Origin: a bacterium
GTDB taxonomy: Bacteria > Patescibacteriota > Patescibacteriia > UBA1558 > UBA10009
Length of the DNA: 64,000 nucleotides
Reading direction: 5' to 3'
Assembly (NCBI GenBank): GCA_018672055.1
Contig: JABHGM010000001.1
Location: forward strand, 353,404-417,403
Shown piece by piece: positions 34,901 through 55,673 of this stretch; the stretch's first letter is position 1; the number at the start of each line of letters is the position of its first letter. Under the pieces are notes generated by a model. The model worked only from the letters and a program-made list of their open reading frames with translations. It was not told the DNA's origin and did not search any database. Both the position numbers and the translations under genes were made by a program.

Positions 34901-36727
34901 AATGGTTCTATTGAAGGCAGTGAAGAATGTGAGTTAGGTGATTCTATAAATTACTGTGGCTATGATCACGCATATTACGAGTCACAACTAGTTGGTTGTT
35001 CTGATATTGATTGTACTTGGGCTGAAGATGATTCTGGTGTTTGCGGAGGTTATTGTGGTGATGGTAATGTTGATAGTTTTGAAGATTGTGACGGAGGCAT
35101 TAATTGTAGTGACACTTGTGATTTTATACCATATTGTGGTGATAATATTGCTCAAACTTATTTAGATGAAGAATGTGATGGTTCTGATTTAGGTAATTTT
35201 AGTTGTAGTGATAATTCAACACCTAGTTGTAATACGTCTTGTGAAATAAGTTGTCCTTCTGGTGAATTATATGGTGGATCATGTGGTAATAATATAAAAG
35301 AAGGCACAGAAGAGTGTGATGGTCTTGATACGCCTCCTAATACCTCATGTAACACATCCTGTGAGGTAACAAGCTGTACTGGTAGTTATTTAGCTTGTGA
35401 TGGTAATTTAACTGATTTAGATGGTTGTGAAGTAGATATATTATCTGATGAATATAATTGTACTGCTTGTGGTAATAGCTGTTATGATGTTTCTGATATT
35501 AATGAGAATACTTTAGTTGAGTGTACTCAATATATTAATGATGATGGAGATGATTCAGCTGTTTGTTCATATGGTTGTAATCCATATGATACTTGGTTAA
35601 ACTGTGATTATTCTCCAGCGGGTTGTGAATCAAATTATTTAACGGATTCTAGTAATTGTAATGTTTGTGGAAATGACTGTAGTATTGATCCTGGCACTAT
35701 AATTCAAGCTGATCTTGATAATAATATTGATTATTTTTCAGGTTCACCATATCCAGCAGCTGATACTACAATTTATACCTGTGAAAATGGCGGTTGTGGT
35801 TTTATTTGTGAGGAAGGTAGTTATGCAAATTGTGATGAAGTTTCTGATTGTGAAACTATTTTATATAATGATAGTGAAATTACTTGCGGAGAATGTGGTA
35901 ACGGAGTAATTGAAGGTAATGAGCAATGTGAATTAGGTGATTATAGTGCAGAGTTAGTATTTGTTTTTGATATTTCTACAAGTATGGATGATGATGCAGC
36001 TGGTCTATGTTCAGCTTTAGATAGCTTATCTCAAGAATTAGATGAAGATGAAATTAACTATATGTTAACTGTAATGACTTTAAATGGTGGTGTTGGCACA
36101 ACAACTGTTGGCACAACAGATGCTTATGATGCTTTAGTGACTGATTGTGATATATATGGACATGATAATATTCAACACTTTAATTTTTATGATAATTCAT
36201 CAAATAATATTTCAGTTGACGTCGAACAAACTTGTGGGGTAATAACTGGTGCTAAGGAACATTGGGGATATGCTACAAATATTATTGCTCAGTCATATAA
36301 TTGGAATACAGATTATTCAATAACACAAAAGATAATTGTACCAGTTAGTAATGAAGGTCCTTGGTGTGGTGGCGGTAATACTAGTAATGATAGTACTATT
36401 GATAGTGAGGATATTAGTATTGTTTCTACTGCTATTACTACAGCCCTGAATAATTCTGTATTAGTTAGTCCTGTTATAATTCAATTTATTCCACTTGATT
36501 ATGATGAGGATGATGATGATTATGAAACATATTATTATGATGATAATGAAGAACCAGCTCAATCTTACGCTAGTCTTTCCTGGGGTGCTTTATCTGGTTT
36601 AAGTGATAATTTTGTACAGACTGGTGGAATATATACTAATTCATCAGATAATTGGTCTAGTACAATAAATACTATAATTACGGGTAGTACTTGTACTGAT
36701 GAATGTATTTTTCCAGTGATTGAATAA
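28934..36727 (+). CDS. Giant 2597-aa surface protein: same T4SS-pilin-like N-terminal domain, IPT/TIG and Big-like domains, five Myxococcus-type Cys-rich repeats, C-terminal vWA domain
   Basis: N-terminal 115 aa nearly identical in pattern to the upstream protein (GLEPVAETGLG..IIQIALGFLGILALIVILYGGYTWLSSGGNQDKVADAKKILVNGVIGLVIILSAFSIVTF). IPT/TIG-like ITSIDPPNGASGNWITIYGSGFG, ISFSPDSGNVGEYITIYGSGFG, ICSITPNSGLIDTPVYIAGEF. Five CGNG.IEG.EECELGD-type repeats. vWA MIDAS VFVFDISTSM. Confidence 0.8.
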   Translation: MRFIKNNLFILILLVVVSFFLIPNLSFAQTDLGLEPVAETGLGSSSLPELIVRIIQIALGFLGILALIVILYGGYTWLSSGGNQDKVADAKKILVNGVIGLVIILSAFSIVTFLITRIFDATGGEALYCEIGQVEECSMSGDCEREKTCIDNGEGNGVWGDCEIIYSGECSPLSDSEFFRLTATAPANGDELNIANVVVQLTFNNNVGDFNAIDLSEGEGVTIVQRSTNNLVPLVGEVSNNPKKLNIYPDKDQAGYACTGHPDLACFPYDSIDDLNNWYTVTVLTEGVVLTNSSGTEVSCLDIPCVFEFKTGFSVDTENPVVDLISAVSNGQFDWNNSDNIDINISESFLFNSQASDDAGLASSNFFENQITLSSTPDLGQGLFLSLIPWSPEDLGYQVSDVKQVGAEVTDYAGNSTQSIKQVTLFSATCYNEIQDGDEIGIDCGGSCPACSDENVDNPIITSIDPPNGASGNWITIYGSGFGESQGTIKYRDQLGNINYIGVPSLGMLVCESPWNDTWIIMEIPDIDLGLVDLQVVRFNSSISSNWYEDFDVNTIQRPGICLMTSDDGYYNDELNIIGHSFGDNTDVRDIFFGQSVERVSASNQSFSIEGSIEHAYGNVPYLESGQTVVRVEIDGEESNGLYFTVIDSNQESSISFSPDSGNVGEYITIYGSGFGDFKGEGTVYFNNNIEGSFDFPDACGTNYWSDDQIVVKVPVGSSDGALRVETDSGYVVTSSTFFDFNNTLDISPGICSITPNSGLIDTPVYIAGEFSEDVLVNFSGIELSDVDIDNNEITILVPNVSSGLVNLEEPTGAESNSVNFSVGQTSQGGEPNDDYFEWQFTTCEDCLIPEVEENGICSNGDLASPSPRPYSTDGFIDQDVTITFNSTMDHSTFIANDSVILEVCDGLEVNCTSSNWSFVLGDNRNSVVLNPDNDFNADTWYRITLTEDIANFEYNMDAEYSWSFKTAQENLQCTADSVIISPYDRREGSTLGPIELNEYVNYSASGVNSNNCASCSDDFEWEWESNDPGAVISDTNLSTNQLHAEGLISSNQEIIIAQIIDVEPYPIGNAYLNIVEETGNQDNEPGDDQLLLVDYQPVGDQVCLNTLAQVEFNHGLSDNGLSQFSFFKCSTSEGDCPTLGEGGNWISAGSDITFNNNNTLVSMSPSSGLLDPDFDYRIIMYSGDPDILGESRISTDDGLFLNQEGCEYGGGNWFQGMQWCYWIFSTVDERCEVDSIGISPNNVINNINDTQDWQATAYDQEGLALTDVVDSWTVNDSEIASIVDNGDNTATTDSLSSGSTWLYTDIDIDNIRGEAWLEVEPSIVNPQIISTQPIGQEYFCTNSLVEVTFDQYLKRETVNQNTFELNQFSDTDLGGCIAFDETIAFGEPTNLINKFTDVYFNKFISNLTSKLVNYVFNKVYAIVPDWIPQSGYWCPLNNSGEWILDNIGGEGRVKFQLNEVLPGNSSIQVLIQGGQGGVLSIQDLPLDINSDTYDYYFNTSDTYCELSFLQVSTDLETYSPEYTFNISEDSSNLDENDPLSGNFDTINDYDKAFYVTGFSQNGQALTSVPGEYEWIWRWNSEDTSIALTTDSVNYSEYYDADYDGNYNVVLAANNNGETDITAHAVFIDNSSLAGTGQVIVDLCENPWPAVDITNLDNTYYEDTNFSFGLSYCRDAGLYGFNDDLPSLGDISDNVTLYNISADDLLKEYLMPVGDDLIGLRVYTNDNHLSPAEWYSNNIPELQQGNLSYLIVDGYQAIQDGRTIYVAATSVTNDNISIYSDIFLLSYNSEASAETVNIYNQLIDRWIFNTNILEENKGKLIRDLKRLNDLTYIKEVLNNYNAINNTYPILSGGTFLTGMSTSKWPSWNNTFSSELNASLPIDPINQFNACADCTSSSDASCDNYDINTCWNPDLNNGQGNFSCDAGSYFYRYQYSYNAGPDYLLAAKMEFPYVGNIASTWNPSFDTNHLYLSTEFVEGCGFEFLGQVCGNGSIEGSEECELGDSINYCGYDHAYYESQLVGCSDIDCTWAEDDSGVCGGYCGDGNVDSFEDCDGGINCSDTCDFIPYCGDNIAQTYLDEECDGSDLGNFSCSDNSTPSCNTSCEISCPSGELYGGSCGNNIKEGTEECDGLDTPPNTSCNTSCEVTSCTGSYLACDGNLTDLDGCEVDILSDEYNCTACGNSCYDVSDINENTLVECTQYINDDGDDSAVCSYGCNPYDTWLNCDYSPAGCESNYLTDSSNCNVCGNDCSIDPGTIIQADLDNNIDYFSGSPYPAADTTIYTCENGGCGFICEEGSYANCDEVSDCETILYNDSEITCGECGNGVIEGNEQCELGDYSAELVFVFDISTSMDDDAAGLCSALDSLSQELDEDEINYMLTVMTLNGGVGTTTVGTTDAYDALVTDCDIYGHDNIQHFNFYDNSSNNISVDVEQTCGVITGAKEHWGYATNIIAQSYNWNTDYSITQKIIVPVSNEGPWCGGGNTSNDSTIDSEDISIVSTAITTALNNSVLVSPVIIQFIPLDYDEDDDDYETYYYDDNEEPAQSYASLSWGALSGLSDNFVQTGGIYTNSSDNWSSTINTIITGSTCTDECIFPVIE

Positions 36728-40736: not shown

Positions 40737-41933
40737 ATGGCTAAATCTAAATCAATAGAAATAAAACCAGATATAGAAACTTTTGCAAAAATTAAAGTGA
40801 TTGGTTTAGGTGGATCAGGTGGATCTGCTATCAATCGCATGATTAAGTCTAAGCTTCATGGTATTGAGTTTATTGCTATAAATACCGATGCTCAGGCTTT
40901 AAATAGTAATAAGGCATCAAAAAAGGTACATATAGGTAGAGAAGCTACTCGTGGTTTAGGTGCTGGTATGGATCCAGAACTAGGTGCTCAAGCTGCTGAA
41001 GAAAATGAAGAAGATATTAGGAAAGCTTTAGATGGAGCTGACATGGTTTTTATAACCTGTGGTTTAGGTGGTGGTACTGGTACAGGCTCTGCTCCAATTG
41101 TAGCTGATATTGCTCGTGAACTTGGTGCTTTAACGGTTGGTGTGGTCACTAAGCCGTTTTCTTTTGAAGGTGCTCAAAGAAAAGGTATTGGAGATAGAGG
41201 TTTAGATAGTTTAACTGATAAGGTTGATACAATAATTACAATTCCTAATGATAGATTATTACAAGTAATTGATAAGAAGACATCTTTACTTGATGCCTTC
41301 GCTATTGTTGATGAAGTTTTAAAACAAGGTGTCCAAGGAATTTCTGAAATAATTACAGTACCAGGACTCGTTAATGTCGATTTCGCTGATGTAAAAGCTA
41401 TTATGAAAGATGCTGGGTCTGCTTTAATGGGTATTGGTAGAGCAAGTGGTGAATCAAGAGCCGTTGATGCAGCTCGTGCTGCTATTGATAGTCCTTTGCT
41501 TGAATTGTCTATTAAAGGTGCTAAAGGAGTTCTCTTCACTATTTCTGGTAGTAAAGATTTAAGTATGCATGAAGTTAACGAAGCCGCCGAGGTAATAACT
41601 TCTTCAGTTGATCAAAATGCTAAAGTTATCTTTGGAGCTATTATTGATGAATCTTTAACTGATGAAGTAAAGATTACAGTAATTGCTACTGGCTTTAATA
41701 CAGCTAGATCAGATGGTGGAGATGTAGATTCAGTTATTAAGGAAGATACTTTTAATACAACACCTGCTTTTGAAAAAATAGTAGAGAAACCTCCAATAGC
41801 AAGTCGTAATCTTTTTTCTAAAAAAGCTAGTAAAAAAGATTCAGCTGAAAAAGTAAGTTTGCCTCCTAAATCAAAAGAAGAAGAAGAATTAGAAATACCA
41901 GCTTTCATTAGAAAAAAGATGGGTAGTAAATAA
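40737..41933 (+). CDS. ftsZ: Cell division GTPase FtsZ
   Basis: 398 aa. Tubulin signature [11 protein letters not shown]7 loop; ftsA-ftsZ order. Confidence 0.97.
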
Positions 41934-41936
41934 TAT

Positions 41937-42413
41937 ATGAAATGTCCTGTTTGTTTAACACAAGATACCAAAGTAAATGATTCTCGATTAATTGATGATG
42001 GTTTCTCAATAAGAAGAAGAAGAGAATGTCAGAAATGTAATTTTAGGTTTTCAACTCAAGAACAGATGGAAATTCTAAATTTAATGGTAATTAAAAGAGA
42101 TGGTAACAAAGAATCATATCAACAAGATAAGATAAAAAGAGGTTTAGAAAGAGCTTTAGAAAAAAGACCATATTCACTAGATCAATTTAAAAAGTTAGTT
42201 AACAGAGTAGAGAGAGATTTTCAGAAAAAAAAGAAAGAAGAAATTACTAGTGAAGAAATAGGTGAGGTCTTAATGAAAAGATTAAAGAGTTTTGATAAGG
42301 TAGCCTATATACGTTTTGCTTCAGTCTATAGATCATTTGAAGATGTTAAGACGTTTCAAAAAGAGTTAAAGAGTTTAGTAAATAAGAGAGTTCAAAAAAA
42401 TAAGAAAAAATAA
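41937..42413 (+). CDS. nrdR: Transcriptional repressor NrdR
   Basis: 158 aa. N-terminal Zn ribbon MKCPVC..D..V.DSR (CxxC..CxxC) plus an ATP-cone. Confidence 0.92.
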   Translation: MKCPVCLTQDTKVNDSRLIDDGFSIRRRRECQKCNFRFSTQEQMEILNLMVIKRDGNKESYQQDKIKRGLERALEKRPYSLDQFKKLVNRVERDFQKKKKEEITSEEIGEVLMKRLKSFDKVAYIRFASVYRSFEDVKTFQKELKSLVNKRVQKNKKK

Positions 42414-42883
42414 TGGAAAGACATTTTAACAGAGTAACTAGAATTATAATTGCCGGAACTTTGGCAATAATTATTTGGATAGTTGGTGTAATAATTGGTC
42501 AAGAACAAACAGTTACTATTTTAAATCCAGAAGGTGGTTTAGGTGGTCTAATTAGCAGAAGTAGAACAGCTCAAGTAAGTTTAATGTTAGATTATGGTAC
42601 AGGTGAAATTAAAGTATATCCGGAGATTAAATTAAGCTATGGTTCATCAGTTTTAGACTTACTTGATCGTATTAATAATTTAGAAAGTGAATTTAATCTA
42701 AACTATACTTTAGAAGATAATATAGAACTTACTTCATTTACTATAAGTGATTATCCAAATATATTAGACGGTAAGAATTGGTTAGTTTGGATTGATAATG
42801 GATTACAAGTTGATGACTATAATCTAATAAAATTAAAGTCAGGTGATAATATAGAATTAAAATATATTAAATTAAAAGAATAA
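42413..42883 (+). CDS. Hypothetical exported protein (DUF4430-like C-terminus)
   Basis: 156 aa. N-terminal TM. C-terminal ..LKSGDNIELKYIKL resembles DUF4430. Confidence 0.45.
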   Translation: MERHFNRVTRIIIAGTLAIIIWIVGVIIGQEQTVTILNPEGGLGGLISRSRTAQVSLMLDYGTGEIKVYPEIKLSYGSSVLDLLDRINNLESEFNLNYTLEDNIELTSFTISDYPNILDGKNWLVWIDNGLQVDDYNLIKLKSGDNIELKYIKLKE

Positions 42884-42887
42884 ATAT

Positions 42888-43247
42888 ATGCCTAATTATC
42901 AAGGCGCTTCATTAGAAGAGCAAGTTAAAGTACTCTTAGAACAAAATTTAGCTTACTCAAAAGAAATATATCATATGTCTAAAAAGATAAAGGGATATAT
43001 TTTATGGGGCAGAATAATGACAACTGTAAGTATAGTTGTTTTTGTTATTTTACCAATTGTAGTTGGTTTCGTGGTTTTACCACCCCTTTTAAATGATGCT
43101 ATGAGTCAATTTTTACCAGCTGGAAGTAAATCAAATACTGGGTTACTTGGTGATGATGCATCGACAACTGATTTAATAGATATGATCAAAAATAGTGGTG
43201 GTGCTTTAAATTATTATCAGCAGATTTTAGATCAAACTAATCAGTGA
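42888..43247 (+). CDS. Hypothetical membrane protein
   Basis: 119 aa, central TM helix. Confidence 0.4.
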   Translation: MPNYQGASLEEQVKVLLEQNLAYSKEIYHMSKKIKGYILWGRIMTTVSIVVFVILPIVVGFVVLPPLLNDAMSQFLPAGSKSNTGLLGDDASTTDLIDMIKNSGGALNYYQQILDQTNQ

Positions 43248-43312
43248 TAAATATTTTAAATAATATATTTACCTCTTTTAATTAGAGGTTTTTATATCTC
43301 TTCTTAAAAAAT

Positions 43313-43918
43313 ATGAATTTGTATCATAATATAAGATTAATAGATGAATTAGGTATTCCGCATCCTAAATGGGAATTTGTTAGGTCAAGTAAAGAATTAA
43401 AAAAATTTCATACTACTAAAGATTATTGTGGTTGGACAATACGTGTTGCTTTTTTTAAAGATAATGATTTTAGAAAACCTATCTATGATAATTGGGTGCC
43501 TAAAAATAAAGTATTAAAAAAAGTAGATGAATTTGCAGAACTAGCTCAAAATGATTATTTTATCGTAGTATACCCATCTTGGAAGTTTAATAAATCAGGT
43601 ACCCTTTTAATTGATGATGACCAATATATAATTGAAGCACATGCAGGTAGTGTTCAAGATTTAATGAGAAAAGGTAATGTAGATACTAGTTTAGTATTTA
43701 ACAGAGAAATGAAATTAATAGATGATAGTATTGGTAATCCAGATTTTTTAACTAAGAAAGAAATAAAGAATATTTTAAAAGCTACAGATATTATTAACAA
43801 GCCTACTATGTTAGAATGGGCTATTGGTCAACAAAATGAATTTAATTTTAATAAATTAGAAGATTTAAAAGTAGCAGGTAAAATGTTAGTAAAAAAATAT
43901 GAAGGAACAGTTAGATAA
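43313..43918 (+). CDS. Hypothetical cytoplasmic protein
   Basis: 201-aa ORF, no recognisable motifs. 3' end overlaps the prfB start by 20 nt. Confidence 0.45.
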   Translation: MNLYHNIRLIDELGIPHPKWEFVRSSKELKKFHTTKDYCGWTIRVAFFKDNDFRKPIYDNWVPKNKVLKKVDEFAELAQNDYFIVVYPSWKFNKSGTLLIDDDQYIIEAHAGSVQDLMRKGNVDTSLVFNREMKLIDDSIGNPDFLTKKEIKNILKATDIINKPTMLEWAIGQQNEFNFNKLEDLKVAGKMLVKKYEGTVR

Positions 43919-44972
43919 AATAAAAGAGCTTAAAAAAAGAATTAAAGATTTAAAATCTAATATTGATTTTAATTCCAAAAAAGAAGAAATAACTAGTTTA
44001 GAAGAAAGAATGAATACACCTAATTTTTGGGGCAATCAAGATGAAGCAACTATGGTTTCACAAAAAGTAGCCGCTCTTAAAGAAGAGATAACTAATTGGA
44101 AAGATATTGATACTGGAATAAAAGATATGTATGATTTAGCTAAAGAAGATGAAGATATTGATTTAAATGATGAGTATGAAATATTAAATAGTAAATTTAA
44201 TAAGTTAGAAATACTTACAGTGTTAAATAATAAATATGATGATTCTAATGCTATATTATCAATTTACGCTGGAGCTGGCGGAGTAGATGCTCAAGATTGG
44301 GCAGAGATGTTACTTAGAATGTATTTAAGATATGCAGAAAAGAAAGATTTTAAAGTTAAAACACTAGATAAGTCAAAAGGTACTGAAGCAGGTATTAAGT
44401 CTGTTACTTTAGAAATAAAAGGTAGATATGCTTATGGTTTTTTAAAATCAGAAAGTGGAGTACATAGATTAGTTAGATTATCTCCATATGATTCTGATAA
44501 TGCTAGACATACTTCTTTTGCTATGGTGGAAATAATACCTGAGATAGAAGTAGATTCTGATTTTGAGATAAAAGATGATGACTTAAAGGTAGATACCTTT
44601 AAAGCTTCAGGTCATGGTGGTCAAAGTGTTAATACAACAGATTCAGCAGTAAGAATAACTCATTTGCCTACTAAAATAACTGTAACCTGTCAAAATGAAA
44701 GATCTCAGCATCAGAATAAAGATACAGCTTTAAAGTATTTAAGAGGTAAGTTGATCAAATATAATGAAACAAAGGTTGAAGCTGAAAGACAAAGACTAAG
44801 AGGTGAATTTACTGAAGCTGCTTGGGGCAATCAAATACGTTCATATGTATTACATCCATATAAGATGGTTAAAGATCACAGAACTAAATATGAAGAAAAA
44901 GATCCAGAACGAGTATTAGATGGAGAGATAGATAAATATATAGAAGAATATTTAAAAAGTCAGATAGAATAA
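43899..44972 (+). CDS. prfB: Peptide chain release factor 2 (contiguous ORF, no +1 frameshift site)
   Basis: 357 aa. GGQ motif (SGHGGQSVNTTDSAVRITHLPT), RF2-type SPF-like tripeptide (SPY). The N-terminus aligns to RF2 from residue 1 in a single frame. Confidence 0.92.
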   Translation: MKEQLDKIKELKKRIKDLKSNIDFNSKKEEITSLEERMNTPNFWGNQDEATMVSQKVAALKEEITNWKDIDTGIKDMYDLAKEDEDIDLNDEYEILNSKFNKLEILTVLNNKYDDSNAILSIYAGAGGVDAQDWAEMLLRMYLRYAEKKDFKVKTLDKSKGTEAGIKSVTLEIKGRYAYGFLKSESGVHRLVRLSPYDSDNARHTSFAMVEIIPEIEVDSDFEIKDDDLKVDTFKASGHGGQSVNTTDSAVRITHLPTKITVTCQNERSQHQNKDTALKYLRGKLIKYNETKVEAERQRLRGEFTEAAWGNQIRSYVLHPYKMVKDHRTKYEEKDPERVLDGEIDKYIEEYLKSQIE

Positions 44973-45003
44973 AAAAAGACCCGTCCTAAGATGGGTCTTT
45001 ATT
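44971..45003. terminator. Bidirectional intrinsic terminator (GACCCGTC-CTAA-GATGGGTC)
   Basis: Read directly between convergent prfB and the membrane-protein gene. Confidence 0.7.
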
Positions 45004-45013
45004 TGGAAATATA

Positions 45014-45541
45014 TTAAATATTAATTATTCCAACCTCATTAGCTATTGCTATATAAGTAAGTATTGATAATGAAGTAGTAGTTAATCCAAGACTAATGAA
45101 GAAGCAACTTTTAAATGCTTTTTCTTTTTTTTGAGGATCAGAATAGTCAACTGCCCAATCAAGATAATCAAGTATATATATGAATAGTATTATAGCGCTT
45201 ATTATAATAAGTATACTACCTGCTATTTTCCATGCTATATGACTTTGAATAAAACTTAATAGAATAAGTATTATTGAGGACAAAAAGCATTGAGTCATAA
45301 AATAGAAAATGATTGGTGATTTTAGATTAATACTACTAACAAAATGTATTTTTGTACCATCAATTTTTAATATTTTAGCTATTAAGAAAAAAGTAATTGG
45401 TAGTAAAAATAATATTATACTAAGTGTACCAGCGGATTTATTATATTCTATTTCACTATGCGCTTGGATGAGCATGAAATCAGTACATATTAATATAGTT
45501 ATTAATGAGACAATAATCTCTCTCGATATTCTAAGTAACAT
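45014..45541 (-). CDS. Paralog 1 of a triplicated polytopic membrane protein family (unknown function)
   Basis: 175 aa, 4-5 TM helices. Shares FYFMTQCFLSSIILILLSF / DYLDWAVDY blocks with the 46305 paralog. Confidence 0.6.
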   Translation of the reverse strand: MLLRISREIIVSLITILICTDFMLIQAHSEIEYNKSAGTLSIILFLLPITFFLIAKILKIDGTKIHFVSSINLKSPIIFYFMTQCFLSSIILILLSFIQSHIAWKIAGSILIIISAIILFIYILDYLDWAVDYSDPQKKEKAFKSCFFISLGLTTTSLSILTYIAIANEVGIINI

Positions 45542-45573
45542 TTATTCTCCTTTTTAAAAAGCAATAATATTGT

Positions 45574-45602
45574 ATTCTAATTTAATTTTATCTATTTGTC
45601 AA
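45574..45602 (-). promoter_or_regulatory. Minus-strand promoter TTGACA-17-TAGAAT for paralog 1, followed by a GGAG ribosome-binding site
   Basis: Reverse complement read directly. Preceded at 45612-45642 by the terminator hairpin of paralog 2. Confidence 0.5.
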
Positions 45603-45656
45603 TTATTGAAATAAAAAACTCTTCATTCAGGAAGAGTTTATGTAGCTACTTAATAT

Positions 45657-46184
45657 TTACCAAGTTAACCAATTTTGAAGAGCAAAATTTTCTAAATATG
45701 TGGGAAGATTATTATATATCCTAACAGTTGGTATCATGATTACTAAATAGAGACAAAGAGTAGTTAATAGACCTATTATTGTCCATTGTTCTTTAGAATT
45801 TATGTACTTATTATATTCGTAATTTCTATCTATTGTATCTGTTAGTAATCTAGTTGCATAATATAGAAGAAATACAATCACTATGAGACCAGGCATGATT
45901 TGAGCTGACGTTGGATTTGCATTTTTCGCTATAAGAAGACCACTAATAGCAATAATTAGGAGCTGACTAACTATTACATAATCTCTTATTTTATTTACTT
46001 CTTTACCTTTTTTATATGGACCAGGATTTAATGAAAATGCCATTAAAATATATACAAAGATACTAATACCAACAGTCATATTATATCCTATAATCGGGGC
46101 AAGGCATATATAAAAAATAAATGTAAATAATAGTCCAATTACTGAAATACCAAAACTTTTACATATCGTATAAAAATTATTCAT
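45657..46184 (-). CDS. Paralog 2 of the membrane protein family
   Basis: 175 aa, polytopic. C-terminal ..LENFALQNWLTW is similar to ..LDYFCLQKYWYLLN of paralog 3. Confidence 0.55.
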   Translation of the reverse strand: MNNFYTICKSFGISVIGLLFTFIFYICLAPIIGYNMTVGISIFVYILMAFSLNPGPYKKGKEVNKIRDYVIVSQLLIIAISGLLIAKNANPTSAQIMPGLIVIVFLLYYATRLLTDTIDRNYEYNKYINSKEQWTIIGLLTTLCLYLVIMIPTVRIYNNLPTYLENFALQNWLTW

Positions 46185-46226
46185 TTTACACTCCTATTTT
46201 TATTTATTTGAAAGATCGTTAATTAC

Positions 46227-46255
46227 AACTTAGTATACATAATATGATTTGTCAA
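46227..46255 (-). promoter_or_regulatory. Minus-strand promoter TTGACA-17-TAAGTT for paralog 2
   Basis: The 26-nt block ATTTGTCAATTATTGAAATAAAAAAC is identical to the block upstream of paralog 1. It is followed (46266-46293) by the terminator hairpin AAACCCGTCTTTACGATGGGTTT of paralog 3. Confidence 0.45.
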
Positions 46256-46304
46256 TTATTGAAATAAAAAACCCATCGTAAAGACGGGTTTATAAGGATT
46301 GATA

Positions 46305-46952
46305 TTAATTAAGTAAGTACCAATATTTTTGTAAACAGAAATAATCTAAGATAGATGATTTATCTGCAGCAACTGTTATTGTTGAGTATGTTATCAGTAT
46401 CAATAATACAGCTGTTAATATGAGACTAACAAAAAACCAGTATTTGTACTTTTGTTCAATATTAAAGAATGGGTGATAAGGCATCGGCGCATGGTGATCA
46501 TAGTAATCAGTTAAAGCATTTACCCACTTAAAATATTTATTTGAAAAATATATCATGATGAGAAAACTAGCTATACTAATAATCATGTTACCTATTTCAT
46601 CAATAAAAGGTTGATAAAATGTACTGACCAAAATTAATATAGTCGCTGAAAGATAAGATTGAGTTACTAAATATAGATTGGTTGGTTTATCATATTTTTT
46701 GGATTCTTCTGAGTAATGGGCTTCTTTAGGATGAGAAAGAGGTTTTTTATATAATTCAAGTATCCATATTCCAGCTGGTGTTATTATTAACATCCATCCA
46801 AGAAAGTGGAATGATTGTTGGAAACTCATTCCAAGCTTTACTCCAAATATAATTAAGCTAATACAATATAGCAAACTTAGTATGGGGTATAAGAAATTAC
46901 GAGATATATTTTTTATTGAATATATTCTTATTTCTTTTTTTGTTGGTACCAT
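46305..46952 (-). CDS. Paralog 3 of the membrane protein family
   Basis: 215 aa, polytopic. Conserved blocks shared with paralogs 1 and 2. Confidence 0.6.
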   Translation of the reverse strand: MVPTKKEIRIYSIKNISRNFLYPILSLLYCISLIIFGVKLGMSFQQSFHFLGWMLIITPAGIWILELYKKPLSHPKEAHYSEESKKYDKPTNLYLVTQSYLSATILILVSTFYQPFIDEIGNMIISIASFLIMIYFSNKYFKWVNALTDYYDHHAPMPYHPFFNIEQKYKYWFFVSLILTAVLLILITYSTITVAADKSSILDYFCLQKYWYLLN

Positions 46953-46990
46953 TAGGTTCTCCTTTATTTTTTAAAAAGCAATAAAGAATT

Positions 46991-47019
46991 ATCTTAACTT
47001 AATTTATATTATTTGTCAA
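46991..47019 (-). promoter_or_regulatory. Minus-strand promoter TTGACA-17-TAAGAT for paralog 3; overlaps a divergent plus-strand TTGTCA-18-TAATAT promoter for cysS
   Basis: Read directly. 5' UTR element ATTGCTTTTTAAAAA..GGAG is shared with paralog 1. Confidence 0.45.
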
Positions 47020-47058
47020 TGTTTAGCCAAAATTCGTAATATATAGTAAAATAGATAT

Positions 47059-48432
47059 ATGAATAAAATATATCTATATAACACTCTAACGCGTAAGAAA
47101 GAGATATTTAAGCCTATACGAGGTAATAAGGTTGGTTTATATACATGTGGTCCTACAGTATATAATTACGCACATATTGGTAATTTAAGAACCTATGTTT
47201 TTGAAGATGTTTTAAGACGTGTTTTAGAATTTAATAAATATCGTGTAAAACATATAATGAATATTACTGATGTTGGGCACTTAACATCAGATGGTGATAC
47301 TGGTGAAGACAAGATAGAAAAAGGAGCAGAGCGAGAAGGTAAGACAGTTTGGCAGATAGCAGAGTACTATACTGATGCTTTTAAAGAACATCTTAATGCT
47401 TTAAATATTTTAATGCCTGATAAATGGGTAAAAGCTACTGACTATATTAAATTACAAATTAAATTAATTAAGAAATTAGAAAAAAAAGGTTTAACATATA
47501 AAATAGCTGATGGTATTTACTTTGATAGCTCTAAGTACAATGAATATGCAAAATTAGCTAAATTAAATATAAAAGGGCAAAGAGAAGGGGCTAGAGTAGA
47601 AGTGAATAAAGAAAAGAAGAATTCAACTGATTTTGCTTTATGGAAATTTAGTCCTAAAGATTCAAAAAGACAAATGGAATGGGCTAGTCCGTGGGGTAAG
47701 GGTTTTCCAGGTTGGCATTTAGAATGTAGTACTCTTAGTATGAAATTCTTAGGTAAAGAGTTTGATATTCATTGTGGAGGCATAGATCATATACCTGTAC
47801 ATCATACTAACGAGAGGGCTCAGAATTGGGGTATAACAGGGAGTGAAGTAGTTAAGTATTGGGTTCATGGAGAATTTTTAATAATGGATAAGAATAAGAT
47901 GGCTAAGAGTGAAGGTAATTTTATTATTCTACAAACTTTGATTGATAAAAAATTTAATCCATTAGCTTATAAGTATTTTATATTACAAGCACATTATAGG
48001 TCTAAGTTAAATTTTTCATATGAAGCATTACAAGCTGCTCAAACTGGTTATGATAATTTAATTAGAACTATTTCTAGTTTTGATAAACCAGGTAAAGTAT
48101 GTAGTAGCTGTTTAGAAAGATTTCAAAAAGCTATTAATAATGATTTAGACACTTCTAAAGCTTTAGCTATACTTCAAGAATTAATTAAATCAGATAAGGC
48201 TAGTTCTGTTAAAAGAGCTACTATAATTGAATTTGATAAAGTATTAGGACTTAATTTAAATCAGTATAAAGAAGAGAAGAAATTAAGTGATGATATAAAA
48301 AAGTTAATTGAAGAAAGGCAAAAGGCAAGAGAGAAGAAAGATTTTAAAAAGTCTGATGAATTAAGAAATAAATTAAAAGAACAAGGTATTAGTATTAAAG
48401 ATTTACCTGATAATAAGTATGAGCTCGATTAA
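47059..48432 (+). CDS. cysS: Cysteinyl-tRNA synthetase
   Basis: 457 aa. HIGH-type (HIGNLRT) and KMSKS-type (KMAKSEGN) motifs. Confidence 0.95.
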
Positions 48433-48910
48433 AGTTATTGAATATAAAGGAGATAAAAAGGTACTTGTGAAGCTCATTGAAGAGTTACAAGATTATTTAG
48501 TTAAGGTAGATCCATTAAAAAGACGTATAAGATTACCAGAATATGGAGAAATATATATTGATAATCTCTTAAAAGAGATTAGTGAAAATAATGGAATAAT
48601 TTACATTGCAGAATTTAAAAATACGCCAGTGGGTATGATTGCAGGAATTATTGAAGAATTTACTAAAAATGATGAAATAGAATATATTTCTTCTAAACCT
48701 GCAAAAGTTTTAGAATTAATTGTAAGTGAAAAAAATCGTGGGAAAAATATTGGAAAATTACTTATGGATAAAATGGAAGAATATTTTAAAACTAAAGAAT
48801 GCGATATAATTCAGGTTAAAGTATTTGAACCAAATAAAGACGCACATGGTTTTTATAAAAAACTTGGATATCAGGATAGATTTATAGATATGATTAAGGA
48901 ATCTAAATAA
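48419..48910 (+). CDS. GNAT-family N-acetyltransferase
   Basis: 163 aa. Acetyl-CoA binding motif [15 protein letters not shown].. Confidence 0.7.
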
Positions 48911-48928
48911 CGCCATTTAATATATTGA

Positions 48929-49327
48929 TTGAATTATAATATGAAAATGGAAGAATACTTTAAAAAGGGTCAAGCATATGTTTGGAAAGAAACGTTTGCA
49001 ATTATCAAAGCAAATAAAATTGATTCACAATCTTTTGTAAATATTGTTGATAAACATGAAATAACTGTTATTATTGATGAAAACAAAATAGATAAAAATA
49101 ATGTAATAGAAATAATGAAAGGATGGAAGATATTTACGCTTGATATTGTTTTCCCATCAACTTTTTGTGGGGTTACAGCTAAAATAGCAAGTGAATTATC
49201 TAAGAAAAATATTAGTATCATGCCAATTGCTGCATATTCAAGAGATCATTTCTTAATAAAAGAAGAAAATATAGTTAAAGCAATAAAAGTATTTGAAAGT
49301 TTAGGAATAAAAATAAAGATATATTAG
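48929..49327 (+). CDS. Small ACT-like domain protein (hypothetical)
   Basis: 132 aa. C-terminal half has a beta-alpha-beta-beta-alpha-beta ACT-like pattern. Confidence 0.4.
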   Translation: MNYNMKMEEYFKKGQAYVWKETFAIIKANKIDSQSFVNIVDKHEITVIIDENKIDKNNVIEIMKGWKIFTLDIVFPSTFCGVTAKIASELSKKNISIMPIAAYSRDHFLIKEENIVKAIKVFESLGIKIKIY

Positions 49328-52607: not shown

Positions 52608-52881
52608 TTTGACCTTCAATTTAAAGTATGATAATATACTATTAATATGTTAAAAATAGCTGAAAATCCCATTTATTTTACAAACCAATACACTATTTGG
52701 GTTGTTAATCGTGGCTAGCTAGTTATATACATATAAATTATACAAGCTGGTCTCAAAAAAGGTCAGTTTTTTGAAAAAGTGGACATTAGGAACCTATATA
52801 TATTAATTAGTTAATATTTACAGATTTTTAGTGTTCATACTAAAAATGATTATTTAAAATAAATAGAGGAGATAAGAAAGA

Positions 52882-52956
52882 ATGAAAGATTCGGAATCTA
52901 AGAAAGAGAGTTACTTTAATGCAGGATTAAAGAAAAAATTTGAAGTTAACCGTTAA
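52882..52956 (+). CDS. Candidate 24-aa peptide ORF (MKDSESKKESYFNAGLKKKFEVNR) with strong ribosome-binding site
   Basis: ATG at 52882 preceded by AATAGAGGAGATAAGAAAGA (GGAGG at optimal spacing). Most genes here lack a strong Shine-Dalgarno sequence. Confidence 0.3.
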   Translation: MKDSESKKESYFNAGLKKKFEVNR

Positions 52957-52991
52957 AATGAATAGCACAATAATCAACCCGGGAGAAAAAT

Positions 52992-53225
52992 ATGCAAGTC
53001 AATAATTTCTGTATAAGTGAAACTGATAATATAATCGCAGTAATTAAAAATTACCAGAATAAACTCTTAATAATAAGAGGTAATTTAACCAGAAAAGAAG
53101 CTAGAAAGCTTCCTGAATACAGAAAGGTTGCTAAGGTAATAAAAAGACAAAATAAAAGATTATTGACCATTAGAAAAAATGAGATAACCGAAATTGAAAA
53201 TTCATCTCAATCAATGTATGCATAA
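52992..53225 (+). CDS. Small basic hypothetical protein (77 aa)
   Basis: Track ORF with CCGGGAGAAAAAT ATG ribosome-binding site. Lys/Arg-rich (..RKEARKLPEYRKVAKVIKRQNKRLLTIRKNE..). Confidence 0.4.
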   Translation: MQVNNFCISETDNIIAVIKNYQNKLLIIRGNLTRKEARKLPEYRKVAKVIKRQNKRLLTIRKNEITEIENSSQSMYA

Positions 53226-53250
53226 TAATTAGGCATAAGTGATCTAATAA

Positions 53251-53277
53251 ACCCTGTAGTTTCTACAGGGTTTTTTA
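53251..53277 (+). terminator. Strong intrinsic terminator (CCCTGTAG-TTT-CTACAGGG + T6)
   Basis: Read directly, after the 77-aa ORF. Confidence 0.75.
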
Positions 53278-53282
53278 TTTGT

Positions 53283-53612
53283 CTTGATTATGTCAGCATG
53301 CTATACTTAATTATGCCCTACTTAGTTTTGGCTGATTGAATCTCTACAACCTTTTTTCTGAGGGAGTTCTAAATCTTAAGGGGCCGTGGCCTCTTTTTGC
53401 GAACACCCAGCAACCGTAACGTAGGCTACATTAGTTTTAGTAGGTTAATAAACTTGATTAACTTATCTAGCCTGCGTGGTTCGTTTGGTTCTCAGGACTT
53501 TCAATCGCCCTAGTAGGGCTTTAAGTTAAGCTAAAAATGTATAATTTTGTAATAAAACAAGTAATTTCACGTCTTATTTACTAGTAGGGTTTTAAATCCT
53601 ATTTTTTTATTT
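53283..53612. ncRNA. GC-rich ORF-free structured segment; candidate ncRNA or cis-regulatory leader of unknown class
   Basis: Markedly higher GC than its surroundings. Hairpins GGGGCC-GT-GGCCTC+T5 and CTAC-ATTAGTTTTA-GTAG. 8-bp long-range pairing TGCCCTACT (53323) with AGTAGGGC (53513). No ORF of 60 aa or more on either strand. Confidence 0.25.
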
Positions 53613-55373
53613 ATGAATAATAATACTAAAAAAACATTTAATACTTATTGGCAACATATAAAGAAATATAAGTTGTCAGGTTTTGTTATATTTATTTCTA
53701 TAATTATTGGAGTTATCACTAATATATGGGCTCCTTTGTTATATAAAAAGTTTTTTGATATTTTAACTGGTTCTATAACCGTTGTATCTCAAACTGATGC
53801 TTTAATAGAAATATTATATAATATTTTATTTATCTATTTACTTGGTTGGGTATTCTGGCGACTAGCTACTTTTACTAATAGTTATTTTCAAACTAAAATA
53901 ATGGCGGATTTAACTAATACTTGCTTTTCATATATTCATAAACATTCAATTACTTTTTTTAATAATAACTTTGTTGGTTCTCTAGTTAAACGAGTAAACC
54001 GTTTTTCTAGAGCTTTTGAAGGGATAGCCGATGCTTTAACTTGGGAACTATTACCTGCCTTAATTAATATAATAGCTGTTACATTAGTATTATTTTCTAG
54101 AAATTCAATATTGGGCTTAGCAATACTTATTTGGGTTACTATATATATAACAATTAATTATTTCTTTAGTAGGTTTAAGTTAAAATATGATATTGCTAGA
54201 AGTAAGATGGATTCTGTGGTTACTGGAGTTTTAGCTGATTCTATTACTAATCAATTAAATATTAAAATCTTTACTGGCTATGAACGTGAAAAGAAAAGGT
54301 ATAATAAAGTAATCACTAAACTTCAAAAGATGAGAAGATTTAGTTGGGATTTAGGAAATGCTTTCGAAGCTTTTCAAGTTCTTTTGATGATATTTTTAGA
54401 ATTAGCTATGTTTTACTTTGCTATTAAGCTTTGGCAAAAAGATTTAGTAACAGTTGGTGACTTTGTTTTAATTCAAGCTTATTTAATGACAATATTTAAA
54501 CAGTTATGGAGCTTTGGTAGGGTTATAAGACATTTTTATGAACATTTAGCTGATGCTGAAGAAATGACCGAGATACTTGAAACACCTCATGAAATACAAG
54601 ATATTGCTAGAGCTACAAATTTAGAAATTAAAAAAGGTATGATTGAATTTGATAATGTTGATTTTAGCTATCATAAGACACGTAAAGTAATTAAGAAACT
54701 TAATTTAATTATTAAGCCTCAAGAAAGGTTAGCTTTAGTTGGTGAATCTGGAAGTGGTAAATCTACTATTATTAATATATTACTTAGAAATTACGATATT
54801 AATTCAGGTGATATTAAAATAGATGATCAAACTATTGTTAAAGTTACGCAAGAAAGCTTAAGAAAAAATATTAGTATTGTTTCTCAAGAGCCTATTTTAT
54901 TTCATAGAACTCTTAAAGAAAATATTCGTTATGGTAAACCTAATGCTACTAACGCTGAAGTTTTTAAAGCAGCTAAACTTGCTCATTGTAATAGATTTAT
55001 ATCAGAATTCCCAGAAGGATATGATACTTTTGTTGGAGAGAGAGGAGTTAAATTATCTGGCGGTGAACGTCAGAGAGTTGCCATAGCTAGAGCTATTTTA
55101 AAAAATGCTCCTATCTTAATACTTGATGAAGCTACTTCAAGCTTAGATTCAGAGTCAGAAGAATTAATTCAAGATGCTCTTAACTCTTTAATGAAGGATA
55201 AGACAGTTATTGTTATAGCTCATAGATTGTCTACAATTATGAGAATGGATAGAATTATAGTTTTGAAAAAAGGTAAGGTTATAGAGCAGGGAAGTCATTC
55301 TGAATTAATTAAAAAAAGAGAAGGTGTTTATAATAGGTTATGGACAAAACAGATTGGTGGATTTATAGCTTAA
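53613..55373 (+). CDS. ABC transporter, fused permease/ATP-binding subunit (MsbA-like exporter)
   Basis: 586 aa. Six TM helices, Walker A GESGSGKST, signature LSGGERQRVAIARA, Walker B ILILDEATS. Confidence 0.92.
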   Translation: MNNNTKKTFNTYWQHIKKYKLSGFVIFISIIIGVITNIWAPLLYKKFFDILTGSITVVSQTDALIEILYNILFIYLLGWVFWRLATFTNSYFQTKIMADLTNTCFSYIHKHSITFFNNNFVGSLVKRVNRFSRAFEGIADALTWELLPALINIIAVTLVLFSRNSILGLAILIWVTIYITINYFFSRFKLKYDIARSKMDSVVTGVLADSITNQLNIKIFTGYEREKKRYNKVITKLQKMRRFSWDLGNAFEAFQVLLMIFLELAMFYFAIKLWQKDLVTVGDFVLIQAYLMTIFKQLWSFGRVIRHFYEHLADAEEMTEILETPHEIQDIARATNLEIKKGMIEFDNVDFSYHKTRKVIKKLNLIIKPQERLALVGESGSGKSTIINILLRNYDINSGDIKIDDQTIVKVTQESLRKNISIVSQEPILFHRTLKENIRYGKPNATNAEVFKAAKLAHCNRFISEFPEGYDTFVGERGVKLSGGERQRVAIARAILKNAPILILDEATSSLDSESEELIQDALNSLMKDKTVIVIAHRLSTIMRMDRIIVLKKGKVIEQGSHSELIKKREGVYNRLWTKQIGGFIA

Positions 55374-55598: not shown

Positions 55599-55673
55599 AT
55601 TATTGATAATTAGTATTATTTAATATATAATGGAGAAAGTTTATATTAATTTATTATATTTGTCAAGACTACT

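What the first reader, a model, noticed from the sequence alone, without database searches (positions are those of the whole stretch)
45014..47058. Three tandem paralogous membrane-protein genes, each with its own recycled terminator-promoter module
The three minus-strand genes (175, 175 and 215 aa; 4-5 TM helices) share sequence blocks (FYFMTQCFLSSIILILLSF versus LYLVTQSYLSATILILVSTF; C-terminal L(E/D)(N/Y)F(A/C)LQ(N/K)(W/Y)..). Each intergenic spacer holds a terminator hairpin for the upstream gene, followed by TTGACA-17-TA(A/G)(G/A)(A/T)T and a GGAG ribosome-binding site. Two spacers share a 26-nt identical block (ATTTGTCAATTATTGAAATAAAAAAC). Paralogs 1 and 3 share the 5' UTR element ATTGCTTTTTAAAAA. 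Independently transcribed, diversifying small membrane paralogs resemble immunity-protein arrays or phage/competitor receptors. Their function is unknown.
Basis: seen in the sequence. Interest (0 to 1): 0.55.

Follow-up and report, generated by a model that had tools for sequence, protein, structure and literature searches.

The report
Orphan membrane-gene trio inserted between prfB and cysS
Three small five-helix membrane-protein genes, each apparently with its own promoter and terminator, form a 2-kb insertion that only this one candidate-phyla-radiation (CPR) bacterial species carries, and their function cannot yet be assigned.

Summary
Three minus-strand ORFs (g1 45014-45541, g2 45657-46184, g3 46305-46952) each have a TTGACA-17-TAnnnT promoter, a GGAG ribosome-binding site and an intrinsic terminator. 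The 26-nt block and the 15-nt leader element are exact repeats.

- **Paralogy:** g1 and g3 are clear paralogues (BLASTP 1e-10). g2 is linked to g3 only weakly (E 0.011; 1 of 1000 shuffles) and not to g1 directly.
- **Orphan family:** an exhaustive HMMER profile search of 1.84 billion representative proteins returned only these three. Pfam, NCBIfam, PHROGs, PADLOC, PDB and viral collections gave nothing.
- **Insertion:** the block is a precise 2049-bp insertion (44973-47021). In relatives with 81%, 72% and 71% CysS identity, prfB abuts cysS. A 75% relative carries different cargo at the same junction.
- **Population:** all 24 sampled contigs of this species carry the block.
- **Regulatory conservation:** the regulatory modules are 77-94% identical while the coding DNA is 46% identical.
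- **Context:** no toxin or bacteriocin domain was found among the 20 nearby proteins scanned.

The best reading is a species-specific accessory cassette amplified by tandem duplication. A role inside the membrane, such as immunity or phage exclusion, is only a guess. Interest is moderate to low.

The parts
44973..47021 (-). Whole inserted block of 2049 bp. It holds three complete transcription units and nothing else.
   Evidence: blastn of relative L003 against the window: L003 1-3746 matches window 41209-44972, and L003 3747-5157 matches window 47022-48432. The junction alignment agrees.
44971..45004 (.). Terminator hairpin after g1. On the + strand the same hairpin follows the prfB stop codon, so it looks bidirectional.
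   Evidence: Folding gives -13.4 kcal/mol on the minus strand and -16.7 kcal/mol on the + strand, z -3.7 and -5.0. Both are followed by T-runs. Coordinates are my reading of the structure.
45014..45541 (-). g1, a 175-aa protein with five predicted membrane helices (protein P0003).
45547..45550 (-). GGAG ribosome-binding site of g1.
   Evidence: Read from the sequence.
45551..45565 (-). Leader element ATTGCTTTTTAAAAA, g1 copy.
   Evidence: Two exact copies in the window; 0.24 expected by chance at up to one mismatch.
45574..45602 (-). g1 promoter, TTGACA-17-TAGAAT.
   Evidence: 11 of 12 consensus positions match; also found.
45594..45619 (-). 26-nt exact block, copy 1. It covers the T-tract of the g2 terminator, an A/T-rich linker and the -35 box of g1.
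45616..45639 (-). g2 terminator hairpin.
   Evidence: -9.3 kcal/mol.
45657..46184 (-). g2, a 175-aa protein with five predicted membrane helices (protein P0002). It is the most divergent of the three.
46191..46194 (-). GGAG ribosome-binding site of g2.
46227..46255 (-). g2 promoter, TTGACA-17-TAAGTT. The -10 box is weak.
46247..46272 (-). 26-nt exact block, copy 2. It covers the T-tract of the g3 terminator, the linker and the -35 box of g2.
46269..46291 (-). g3 terminator hairpin.
   Evidence: -11.5 kcal/mol.
46305..46952 (-). g3, a 215-aa protein with five predicted membrane helices (protein P0001). It is the member to which both of the others align.
   Evidence: AlphaFold2 model with five long helices, pLDDT 67.
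46959..46962 (-). GGAG ribosome-binding site of g3.
46968..46982 (-). Leader element ATTGCTTTTTAAAAA, g3 copy.
   Evidence: It is part of the 53-nt, 77% identical repeat D1.
46991..47019 (-). g3 promoter, TTGACA-17-TAAGAT. Its -35 box lies 2 nt inside the right edge of the insertion.

Best explanation
SHOWN.
- The window comes from a small-genome Patescibacteria/CPR bacterium.
- Between the stop codon of prfB and the 37 bp that precede cysS lies a 2049-bp block that the nearest relatives lack.
- The block consists only of three head-to-tail cassettes on the opposite strand. Each cassette runs -35 TTGACA, 17 bp, -10 TAnnnT, a predicted leader of about 26-36 nt with GGAG, a coding sequence, and an intrinsic terminator.
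- The three products form a family with no other member in the public protein collections searched.

INFERRED, core (about 0.7).
- One self-sufficient cassette entered the prfB|cysS junction in this lineage and was amplified by two tandem duplications of the whole promoter-gene-terminator unit.
- The coding regions then drifted to 16-27% amino-acid identity, with third codon positions about 40% identical.
- The terminator tail, the -35 box and the leader stayed 77-94% identical. They are either constrained signals or were homogenised by recombination.
- The three genes are transcribed separately from housekeeping-type promoters.
- The hairpin after g1 also ends prfB transcription, which uncouples prfB from cysS.

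INFERRED, function (about 0.25).
- The proteins are N-in/C-out five-helix inner-membrane proteins with almost nothing exposed outside.
- They share a conserved Gln inside helix 3 and a cytoplasmic D-x-x-D motif.
- They most likely act within the membrane as accessory protective factors. That could be immunity to a membrane-active toxin or blocking of phage entry. A surface receptor or an enzyme is less likely.
For: Anatomy.

Real coding genes: the annotated frame scores 0.08, 0.13 and -0.02 bits per codon, against -0.28 to -1.67 in the other five frames. The chance of 175 stop-free codons is 4e-7.

Housekeeping-type promoters: TTGACA occurs only 16 times in the 64-kb window. Eleven of those are followed by TAnnnT at 16-18 nt, and several of these sit just upstream of tRNA or protein genes. 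Three of the 11 are in this 2-kb block.

Homology and shared architecture. The AlphaFold2 model has five long helices.

Orphan status: only self hits in the 5.8-billion-cluster search. Only the three proteins in the exhaustive profile search of 1.84 billion representatives. That collection holds near-complete MAG contigs of this species (up to 963 kb), so there are apparently no further paralogues elsewhere in its genome either.

Insertion: exact breakpoints, with junction alignment. prfB and cysS are adjacent in L003/L083 (81% CysS identity), L088 (72%) and L094 (71%). L085 (75%) holds unrelated cargo at the same junction.

Fixed in the species.

Regulatory versus coding conservation.

Whole-cassette duplication: the g3 and g1 terminator stems are variants of one another (CCCGTC..GATGGG versus CCCATC..GACGGG), read.

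Atypical codon and amino-acid usage: the three genes score at or below the lowest (0.10) of 51 neighbouring genes (mean 0.43, sd 0.15). This fits a foreign or young origin.
Against: - There is no RNA evidence for three separate transcripts.
- g2 is tied to the family only by marginal statistics, and g1-g2 show nothing directly.
- Insertion rather than repeated precise loss rests on parsimony over four relatives.
- No source for the inserted DNA was found. GC content is host-like. There is no integrase and no target-site duplication.
- The functional guess has no positive evidence. No toxin gene was found nearby. There were no defence or immunity family hits. Copy number does not vary among strains. 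The structure matches only generic helical bundles.
Confidence: 0.55

Rival explanations
1. Small transport, channel or membrane-homeostasis subunits. The three paralogues would form homo- or hetero-oligomers that move a small solute or ion, a lineage-specific physiological function rather than a conflict function.
Confidence: 0.2
2. Young orphan genes of marginal function. A recently acquired or recently born AT-rich sequence encodes helices easily. It was amplified by unequal recombination and persists mainly because it is harmless.
For: There is no homologue anywhere. Codon and amino-acid usage scores at or below the lowest neighbouring gene, and first-position GC is low (0.30-0.34 against 0.43). 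The paralogues have diverged greatly. T-rich sequence readily yields transmembrane peptides (PMC7005711, shown in yeast).
Against: Three intact ORFs of 175-215 codons in 25% GC DNA each have P of about 1e-7 to 1e-8 by chance. Each keeps a consensus promoter, ribosome-binding site and terminator. The five-helix topology and specific polar residues are retained in all three. A genome of about 0.96 Mb is unlikely to keep 2 kb of idle DNA. Birth in place is excluded, because relatives have only 9-37 bp at this junction.
Confidence: 0.15
3. Surface receptors or attachment factors, or decoys for phage or competitor receptors.
For: The paralogues are divergent and individually expressed. CPR bacteria live attached to hosts. 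g2 and g3 share an outside-facing C-terminal tail motif, L(D/E)xF(C/A)LQ.
Against: The predicted outside-facing loops are about 4-13 residues, plus a tail of about 20 residues that g1 lacks entirely. There is no signal peptide, adhesin or Ig-like domain. The window does hold true giant pilin-like surface proteins elsewhere.
Confidence: 0.07
4. These are not real genes. They would be chance ORFs or an assembly artefact.
For: They are annotated only as hypothetical proteins. NCBI annotation of some assemblies called shorter starts (140 and 153 aa).
Against: The DNA is identical across independent assemblies. The coding-frame signal is strong and the ORFs are extremely improbable by chance. g1 and g3 are significantly similar as proteins.
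Confidence: 0.03

Closest known systems
Tandem arrays of type VII secretion immunity genes in Firmicutes: tsaI (polytopic membrane immunity to the depolarising toxin TspA) and esaG strings (PMC7456083 / 10.1101/443630; PMC9484751)
   Same: Strings of non-identical small paralogues sit side by side. In the esaG arrays the intergenic regions form a conserved homology block while the gene bodies vary (PMC9484751). Here the spacers are 77-94% identical while the coding DNA is 46% identical. TsaI, like these proteins, is a small multi-pass membrane protein.
   Different: There is no sequence relationship: Pfam, which includes DUF443, gave no hit. No adjacent toxin gene or secretion locus was found. 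Copy number does not vary between genomes. The host is a CPR bacterium. Each gene here has its own terminator.
Phage 'morons': a gene with its own promoter and terminator inserted between two conserved genes (a concept from the lambdoid phage literature, recalled from general knowledge; usage as in PMC7067206)
   Same: Each unit is a promoter-gene-terminator cassette. The block sits exactly between two genes that are adjacent in relatives. It encodes small membrane proteins, which is a common class of moron cargo.
   Different: The flanking genes are housekeeping chromosomal genes (prfB, cysS), not phage genes. There were no phage hits in PHROGs, IMG/VR, INPHARED or BFVD. GC content is host-like.
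Taxonomically restricted (orphan) genes, and the emergence of membrane proteins from T-rich DNA (PMC7005711)
   Same: There is no detectable homologue. The codons are AT-rich and the products are rich in transmembrane helices. Codon usage is atypical.
   Different: The DNA itself is inserted, so the genes did not arise from a pre-existing non-coding stretch at this locus. They are long (175-215 aa), have five helices and carry full regulatory signals. The cited work is on yeast.
Lineage-specific cargo at junctions of conserved gene strings in related Patescibacteria, seen in the loci fetched here
   Same: The backbone ftsA-ftsZ-nrdR-...-prfB-cysS-comEC-MBL-response regulator-ndk is conserved. 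Different relatives carry different inserts at prfB|cysS (L085: a coiled-coil protein plus two PLP enzymes) and at cysS|comEC (window: GNAT + ACT; L088: Por_Secre_tail proteins + bAvd; L094: a 74-aa ORF).
   Different: Only the window's insert is on the opposite strand, is made of orphan genes, and is internally duplicated with recycled regulatory modules.

Membership tests
TsaI / DUF443 membrane immunity proteins (type VII secretion) | Sequence match to the DUF443 family | tested here: not met
   The Pfam scan at E <= 1 returned only sub-threshold hits to DUF202, TctB, PhoLip_ATPase_C and DUF3784.
Toxin-immunity (polymorphic toxin or bacteriocin) array | A cognate toxin or bacteriocin gene, or a secretion or export locus, next to the array | tested here: not met
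   The flanks are prfB and cysS. Pfam scans of 20 proteins between 26.9 and 61.9 kb found no toxin or bacteriocin domain. The rest of the genome was not available.
Toxin-immunity (polymorphic toxin or bacteriocin) array | Copy number or content of the array varies between strains | tested here: not met
   24 contigs were read and all show the same three genes. Two loci are 100% identical to the window. The sampled population is almost clonal, so the test is weak.
CPBP/Abi-type (CAAX protease-like) bacteriocin immunity proteins | Match to PF02517 with its conserved Glu-Glu and His motifs | tested here: not met
   No Pfam hit. No such motifs in the alignment.
Known anti-phage defence systems | Match to a PADLOC model | tested here: not met
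   0 families for all three proteins at E <= 1.
Phage moron | Own promoter and own terminator flanking the gene | tested here: met
   Consensus promoter and terminator motifs flank each gene. This is motif evidence only.
Phage moron | Located inside a phage or prophage genome | tested here: not met
   The neighbours are prfB, cysS, nrdR, ftsZ and comEC. No phage similarity was found.
Phage moron | Absent from the same position in related genomes | tested here: met
   prfB and cysS are adjacent in L003/L083, L088 and L094.
   g1-g3 gives E 1e-10. g2-g3 gives E 0.011, and 1 of 1000 shuffles scores as well. hhalign gives E 0.052. g1-g2 is not significant. Collinear alignment and hydropathy profiles support membership of g2.
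Independent transcription units | Three separate transcripts | not testable with these tools
   Only promoter and terminator motifs and hairpin energies are available. There are no RNA data.

The most novel reading that the evidence does not exclude
The trio is a newly arisen, species-restricted gene family caught early in its history. A single self-contained promoter-gene-terminator cassette would have come from an unsampled mobile source, such as a phage of this CPR bacterium. It landed in a housekeeping operon junction and was amplified in place. The paralogues are now diverging rapidly under conflict-type selection while their shared regulatory modules are held constant. If so, this would be a tractable example of how ultra-small symbiotic genomes invent new membrane functions, for example phage exclusion or toxin immunity with a fold and family not seen before.
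Probability: 0.15. Interest if true: 0.6.

Novelty: new variant of a known kind. Interest (0 to 1): 0.33.

Why it matters
CPR/Patescibacteria genomes are small and full of unknown membrane proteins, which are thought to govern their dependence on hosts. This locus is an unusually clean case:
- exact insertion boundaries;
- an ancestral state visible in several relatives;
- three complete, insulated expression cassettes;
- no homologue in about 15 billion proteins.

That makes it a useful small model for how accessory genes enter and expand in reduced genomes. It also shows that regulatory modules can be kept while coding sequence is almost randomised. It does not reveal a new mechanism, and without expression or phenotype data the function stays open.

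Tried and rejected
Family assignment led nowhere.
- Pfam, PHROGs, PADLOC and NCBIfam gave only sub-threshold noise.
- A profile search of PDB sequences gave 0 hits at E <= 10.

Structure was uninformative.
- The AlphaFold2 model of g3 from a 3-sequence alignment is only moderate (pLDDT 67, pTM 0.61).
- Foldseek against viral structures gave nothing at E <= 0.001.
- The afdb50 library was not available.

Searches for relatives found only the proteins themselves.
- Two word-indexed searches.
- The exhaustive profile search.
- IMG/VR and INPHARED tblastn.
- JGI metagenome contigs, by DNA module and by protein.
- tblastn against 95 fetched loci, 1.29 Mb.
- No paralogue or similar DNA elsewhere in the window.

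Foreign composition was rejected. The GC fraction of the block (0.23-0.29) is within the host range.

Leader structure or a riboswitch was rejected. The leaders are short and fold no better than shuffles. Rfam finds only tRNAs in the window.

Mobile-element ends were rejected. The 17-nt inverted repeat near both edges (I18, 82% complementary) is one of 45 comparable pairs in 2.2 kb of AT-rich DNA. There is no target-site duplication.

dN/dS and polymorphism analysis was not possible. The cluster variants are single-residue singletons or truncated calls.

The L004/L005 relatives (62% CysS identity) have lost synteny and were uninformative.

Literature searches found no description of this family or locus.
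Full report
**1. What is in the sequence**

Between prfB (43899-44972, + strand) and cysS (47059-48432, + strand) lie three minus-strand ORFs. They are g1 (45014-45541, 175 aa), g2 (45657-46184, 175 aa) and g3 (46305-46952, 215 aa).

Each is preceded by TTGACA, 17 bp, then TAGAAT, TAAGTT or TAAGAT. GGAG lies 7-8 nt before each ATG. Each gene is followed by a G+C-containing hairpin and a T-run. Two of these were found by the scanner. The third, after g1, was read from the sequence. Folding energies are -11.5, -9.3 and -13.4 kcal/mol, with z between -3.4 and -3.8.

The hairpin after g1 also folds on the + strand, at -16.7 kcal/mol. There it sits directly after the prfB stop codon and is followed by TTTATTT, so it can terminate prfB as well.

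It spans the terminator T-tract, an A/T-rich linker and the next gene's -35 box. A 24-nt version has 0 matches expected by chance.

The leader element ATTGCTTTTTAAAAA is exact upstream of g1 and g3. It is part of a 53-nt repeat at 77% identity that runs from the -35 box to the ribosome-binding site. Similarity between spacers has z of about 9, and 0 of 2000 shuffles score as well.

The stems of the g3 and g1 terminators are variants of one sequence: CCCGTC...GATGGG against CCCATC...GACGGG (read). All of this points to duplication of a whole promoter-gene-terminator unit.

**2. Are these real genes and real promoters?**

The window has about 25-30% G+C. At that composition 175 stop-free codons have a probability of 4e-7. 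A codon model trained on 51 neighbouring genes scores the annotated frames at 0.08, 0.13 and -0.02 bits per codon. The other five frames score -0.28 to -1.67.

TTGACA occurs only 16 times in 64 kb. Eleven of those copies are followed by TAnnnT at 16-18 nt. Several of these sit just upstream of tRNA or protein genes, and three are in this 2-kb block. This looks like the organism's housekeeping promoter type, used three times here. Separate transcription is therefore the expected behaviour, but it remains an inference.

**3. Are the three proteins related?**

- g1 and g3: yes. Identity is 27% over 180 columns with E 1e-10, and Smith-Waterman z is 14.
- g2 and g3: probably. BLASTP gives E 0.011 on the C-terminal part. 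The shuffle test gives z 5.2-6.5 with 1 of 1000 shuffles as good, even when shuffling preserves local composition. hhalign gives E 0.052.
- g1 and g2: nothing direct.

The three-way alignment is collinear over the full length. Invariant residues include C30, P59, K70, Q98, D149 and D152 in g3 numbering. Hydropathy profiles correlate: g3-g2 r = 0.73, above every circular shift, and g3-g1 r = 0.63.

Counting Lys and Arg in the loops gives the same topology for all three: N-terminus inside, five helices, C-terminus outside. The outside loops are 4-13 residues. g2 and g3 also carry an outside tail of about 20 residues with the L(D/E)xF(C/A)LQ motif, which g1 lacks. AlphaFold2 on g3 gives five long helices, with pLDDT 67 and pTM 0.61.

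**4. Relatives elsewhere**

None were found.
- The word-indexed searches of 5.8 billion clusters returned only the queries themselves.
- The exhaustive HMMER profile search of 1.84 billion representatives returned exactly three proteins: g3, g1 and g2.
- The collection holds near-complete MAG contigs of this species, up to 963 kb. So there appear to be no further paralogues in its own genome.
- Pfam, PHROGs, PADLOC, NCBIfam, PDB sequences, BFVD, IMG/VR, INPHARED, JGI metagenome contigs and 1.29 Mb of fetched loci were all negative.

**5. Genomic context and history**

CysS places the organism among Patescibacteria. The best named hits are Candidatus Komeilibacteria, at 65-71% identity.

The string ybeY-ftsA-ftsZ-nrdR-(two or three unknown genes)-prfB-cysS-comEC-MBL-response regulator-ndk is conserved in relatives.

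The closest relative is L003/L083, with 81% CysS identity. There the prfB stop codon is followed 31-37 bp later by cysS. blastn gives exact breakpoints: L003 1-3746 matches window 41209-44972, and L003 3747-5157 matches window 47022-48432. The extra DNA in the window is therefore 44973-47021, 2049 bp. It starts at the base after the prfB stop codon and ends 2 nt beyond the -35 box of g3. It contains three cassettes and nothing else.

prfB and cysS are also adjacent (9 bp apart) in L088 (72%) and L094 (71%). L085 (75%) carries a different three-gene insert on the + strand at the same junction: a coiled-coil protein, a PALP enzyme and a Cys/Met-metabolism PLP enzyme.

Parsimony therefore favours gain in the window's lineage, at a junction that accepts cargo repeatedly. 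The neighbouring cysS|comEC junction behaves the same way. It holds GNAT + ACT_7 in the window (48433-49324, a second indel), Por_Secre_tail proteins + bAvd in L088, and a 74-aa ORF in L094.

All 24 contigs of this species that were read carry the trio. Two independent assemblies are 100% identical to the window over 6.9 and 12.6 kb. Protein variants are single-residue singletons or truncated calls.

The G+C content of the block is host-like. Its codon and amino-acid usage scores at or below the lowest of the 51 neighbouring genes (0.10; mean 0.43, sd 0.15), and first-position G+C is 0.30-0.34 against 0.43.

**6. Regulatory modules outlast coding sequence**

Codon-aligned nucleotide identity between the paralogues is 41-47%. 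Third positions are about 40% identical, not far above the roughly 30% expected from composition. The regulatory blocks are 77% identical over 53 nt and 94% over 31 nt, with 26 nt exact.

Either these signals are under strong constraint or they are homogenised by recombination. The signals are the T-tract, a possible UP-like A/T stretch, the -35 box, the -10 box, the leader and the ribosome-binding site. The same pattern, conserved intergenic homology blocks with variable gene bodies, is described for esaG immunity strings (PMC9484751).

The leaders themselves do not fold better than shuffles, and Rfam finds only tRNAs in the window.

**7. How it most likely works**

Shown:
- three complete cassettes;
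- an orphan family of five-helix proteins;
- a precise lineage-specific insertion, present in every sampled genome.

Inferred, about 0.7:
- one cassette was inserted and duplicated twice;
- the genes are transcribed separately from housekeeping-type promoters;
- the left-hand hairpin now ends prfB transcription, so cysS depends on the short conserved upstream stretch, possibly with the TTGTCA at 47013-47018 that the insert's edge supplies (speculative).

Function, about 0.25: the proteins act inside the cytoplasmic membrane as accessory protective factors, such as immunity to a membrane-active toxin or exclusion of phage entry. The reasons are their size and topology, their minimal exposure outside, their lineage restriction, the cassette style and the array pattern.

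No positive functional evidence exists. No toxin or bacteriocin domain was found among the 20 proteins scanned between 26.9 and 61.9 kb, and copy number does not vary.

Rivals:
- a small channel, transporter or membrane-homeostasis factor (0.2), suggested by the conserved intramembrane Gln and the D-x-x-D motif;
- a young orphan family of marginal function (0.15);
- a surface receptor (0.07), disfavoured by the topology;
- an artefact (0.03).

**8. Comparison with what is known**

The locus works like, but is not a member of, the tsaI/esaG-type immunity strings. There is no family match, no toxin and no copy-number variation.

Each unit looks like a phage moron. It has its own promoter and terminator and is absent at the same position in relatives. 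But it is not in a phage.

It is a taxonomically restricted gene family. Birth in place from non-coding DNA is excluded, because relatives have only 9-37 bp at the junction.

**9. Verdict**

The new and solid results are the orphan status and the exact insertion. This is a tidy example of accessory-gene gain and amplification in a reduced genome, but not a demonstrated new mechanism. Interest is 0.33.

Noticed in passing
window 27342-28934 and 28934-36727 (+): Two adjacent proteins of 530 aa and 2597 aa begin with a T4SS_pilin / TrbC(VirB2)-like domain and continue with Big_5 and TIG Ig-like domains. They look like giant pilin-like surface proteins.
   Followed up: partly
window 48433-49324 (+): A GNAT acetyltransferase gene and an ACT_7 gene form a second indel relative to L003/L083, where cysS is followed directly by comEC.
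   Followed up: partly
window 52608-53612: About 1 kb has no ORF of 100 aa or more and no Rfam match. It lies just upstream of an ABC exporter gene (53613-55373). Only 27-77 aa ORFs are present.
   Followed up: partly
window 55638-55666 (-): A promoter-like site, TTGACAAAT...-TAAACT, of the same type as the three in the block points into the 3' end of the ABC gene. No ORF of 100 aa or more lies downstream of it on the minus strand. It could drive an antisense or small RNA.
   Followed up: no
window 47013-47052 (+): The right edge of the insert supplies a TTGTCA on the + strand that overlaps g3's -35 box. It lies 18 bp before TAATAT, upstream of cysS. The conserved TAAAAT at 47047-47052 sits only 6 nt before the cysS ATG, which hints at a very short or absent leader.
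   Followed up: no
L088 7458-12703: In a relative with 72% CysS identity, the cysS|comEC junction holds a 230-aa single-pass protein, two Por_Secre_tail proteins and a bAvd gene. bAvd is an accessory of diversity-generating retroelements.
   Followed up: no
L085 2263-5022: In a relative with 75% CysS identity, the prfB|cysS junction holds a repeat-rich coiled-coil protein (145 aa) plus a PALP enzyme and a Cys/Met-metabolism PLP enzyme. This is cysteine-related cargo next to cysS.
   Followed up: partly
whole window; L001, L002: The same genome appears with 100% DNA identity in unrelated assemblies and in about 150-160 blocks of the public collection, on contigs up to 963 kb. That is unusually clonal and widespread for an uncultured CPR bacterium.
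   Followed up: no
window 43313-43918 (+): A 201-aa gene with no Pfam match overlaps the start of prfB by 20 nt. It is present in the closest relatives (L003/L083; a 199-aa gene in L085) and absent from L088 and L094.
   Followed up: no
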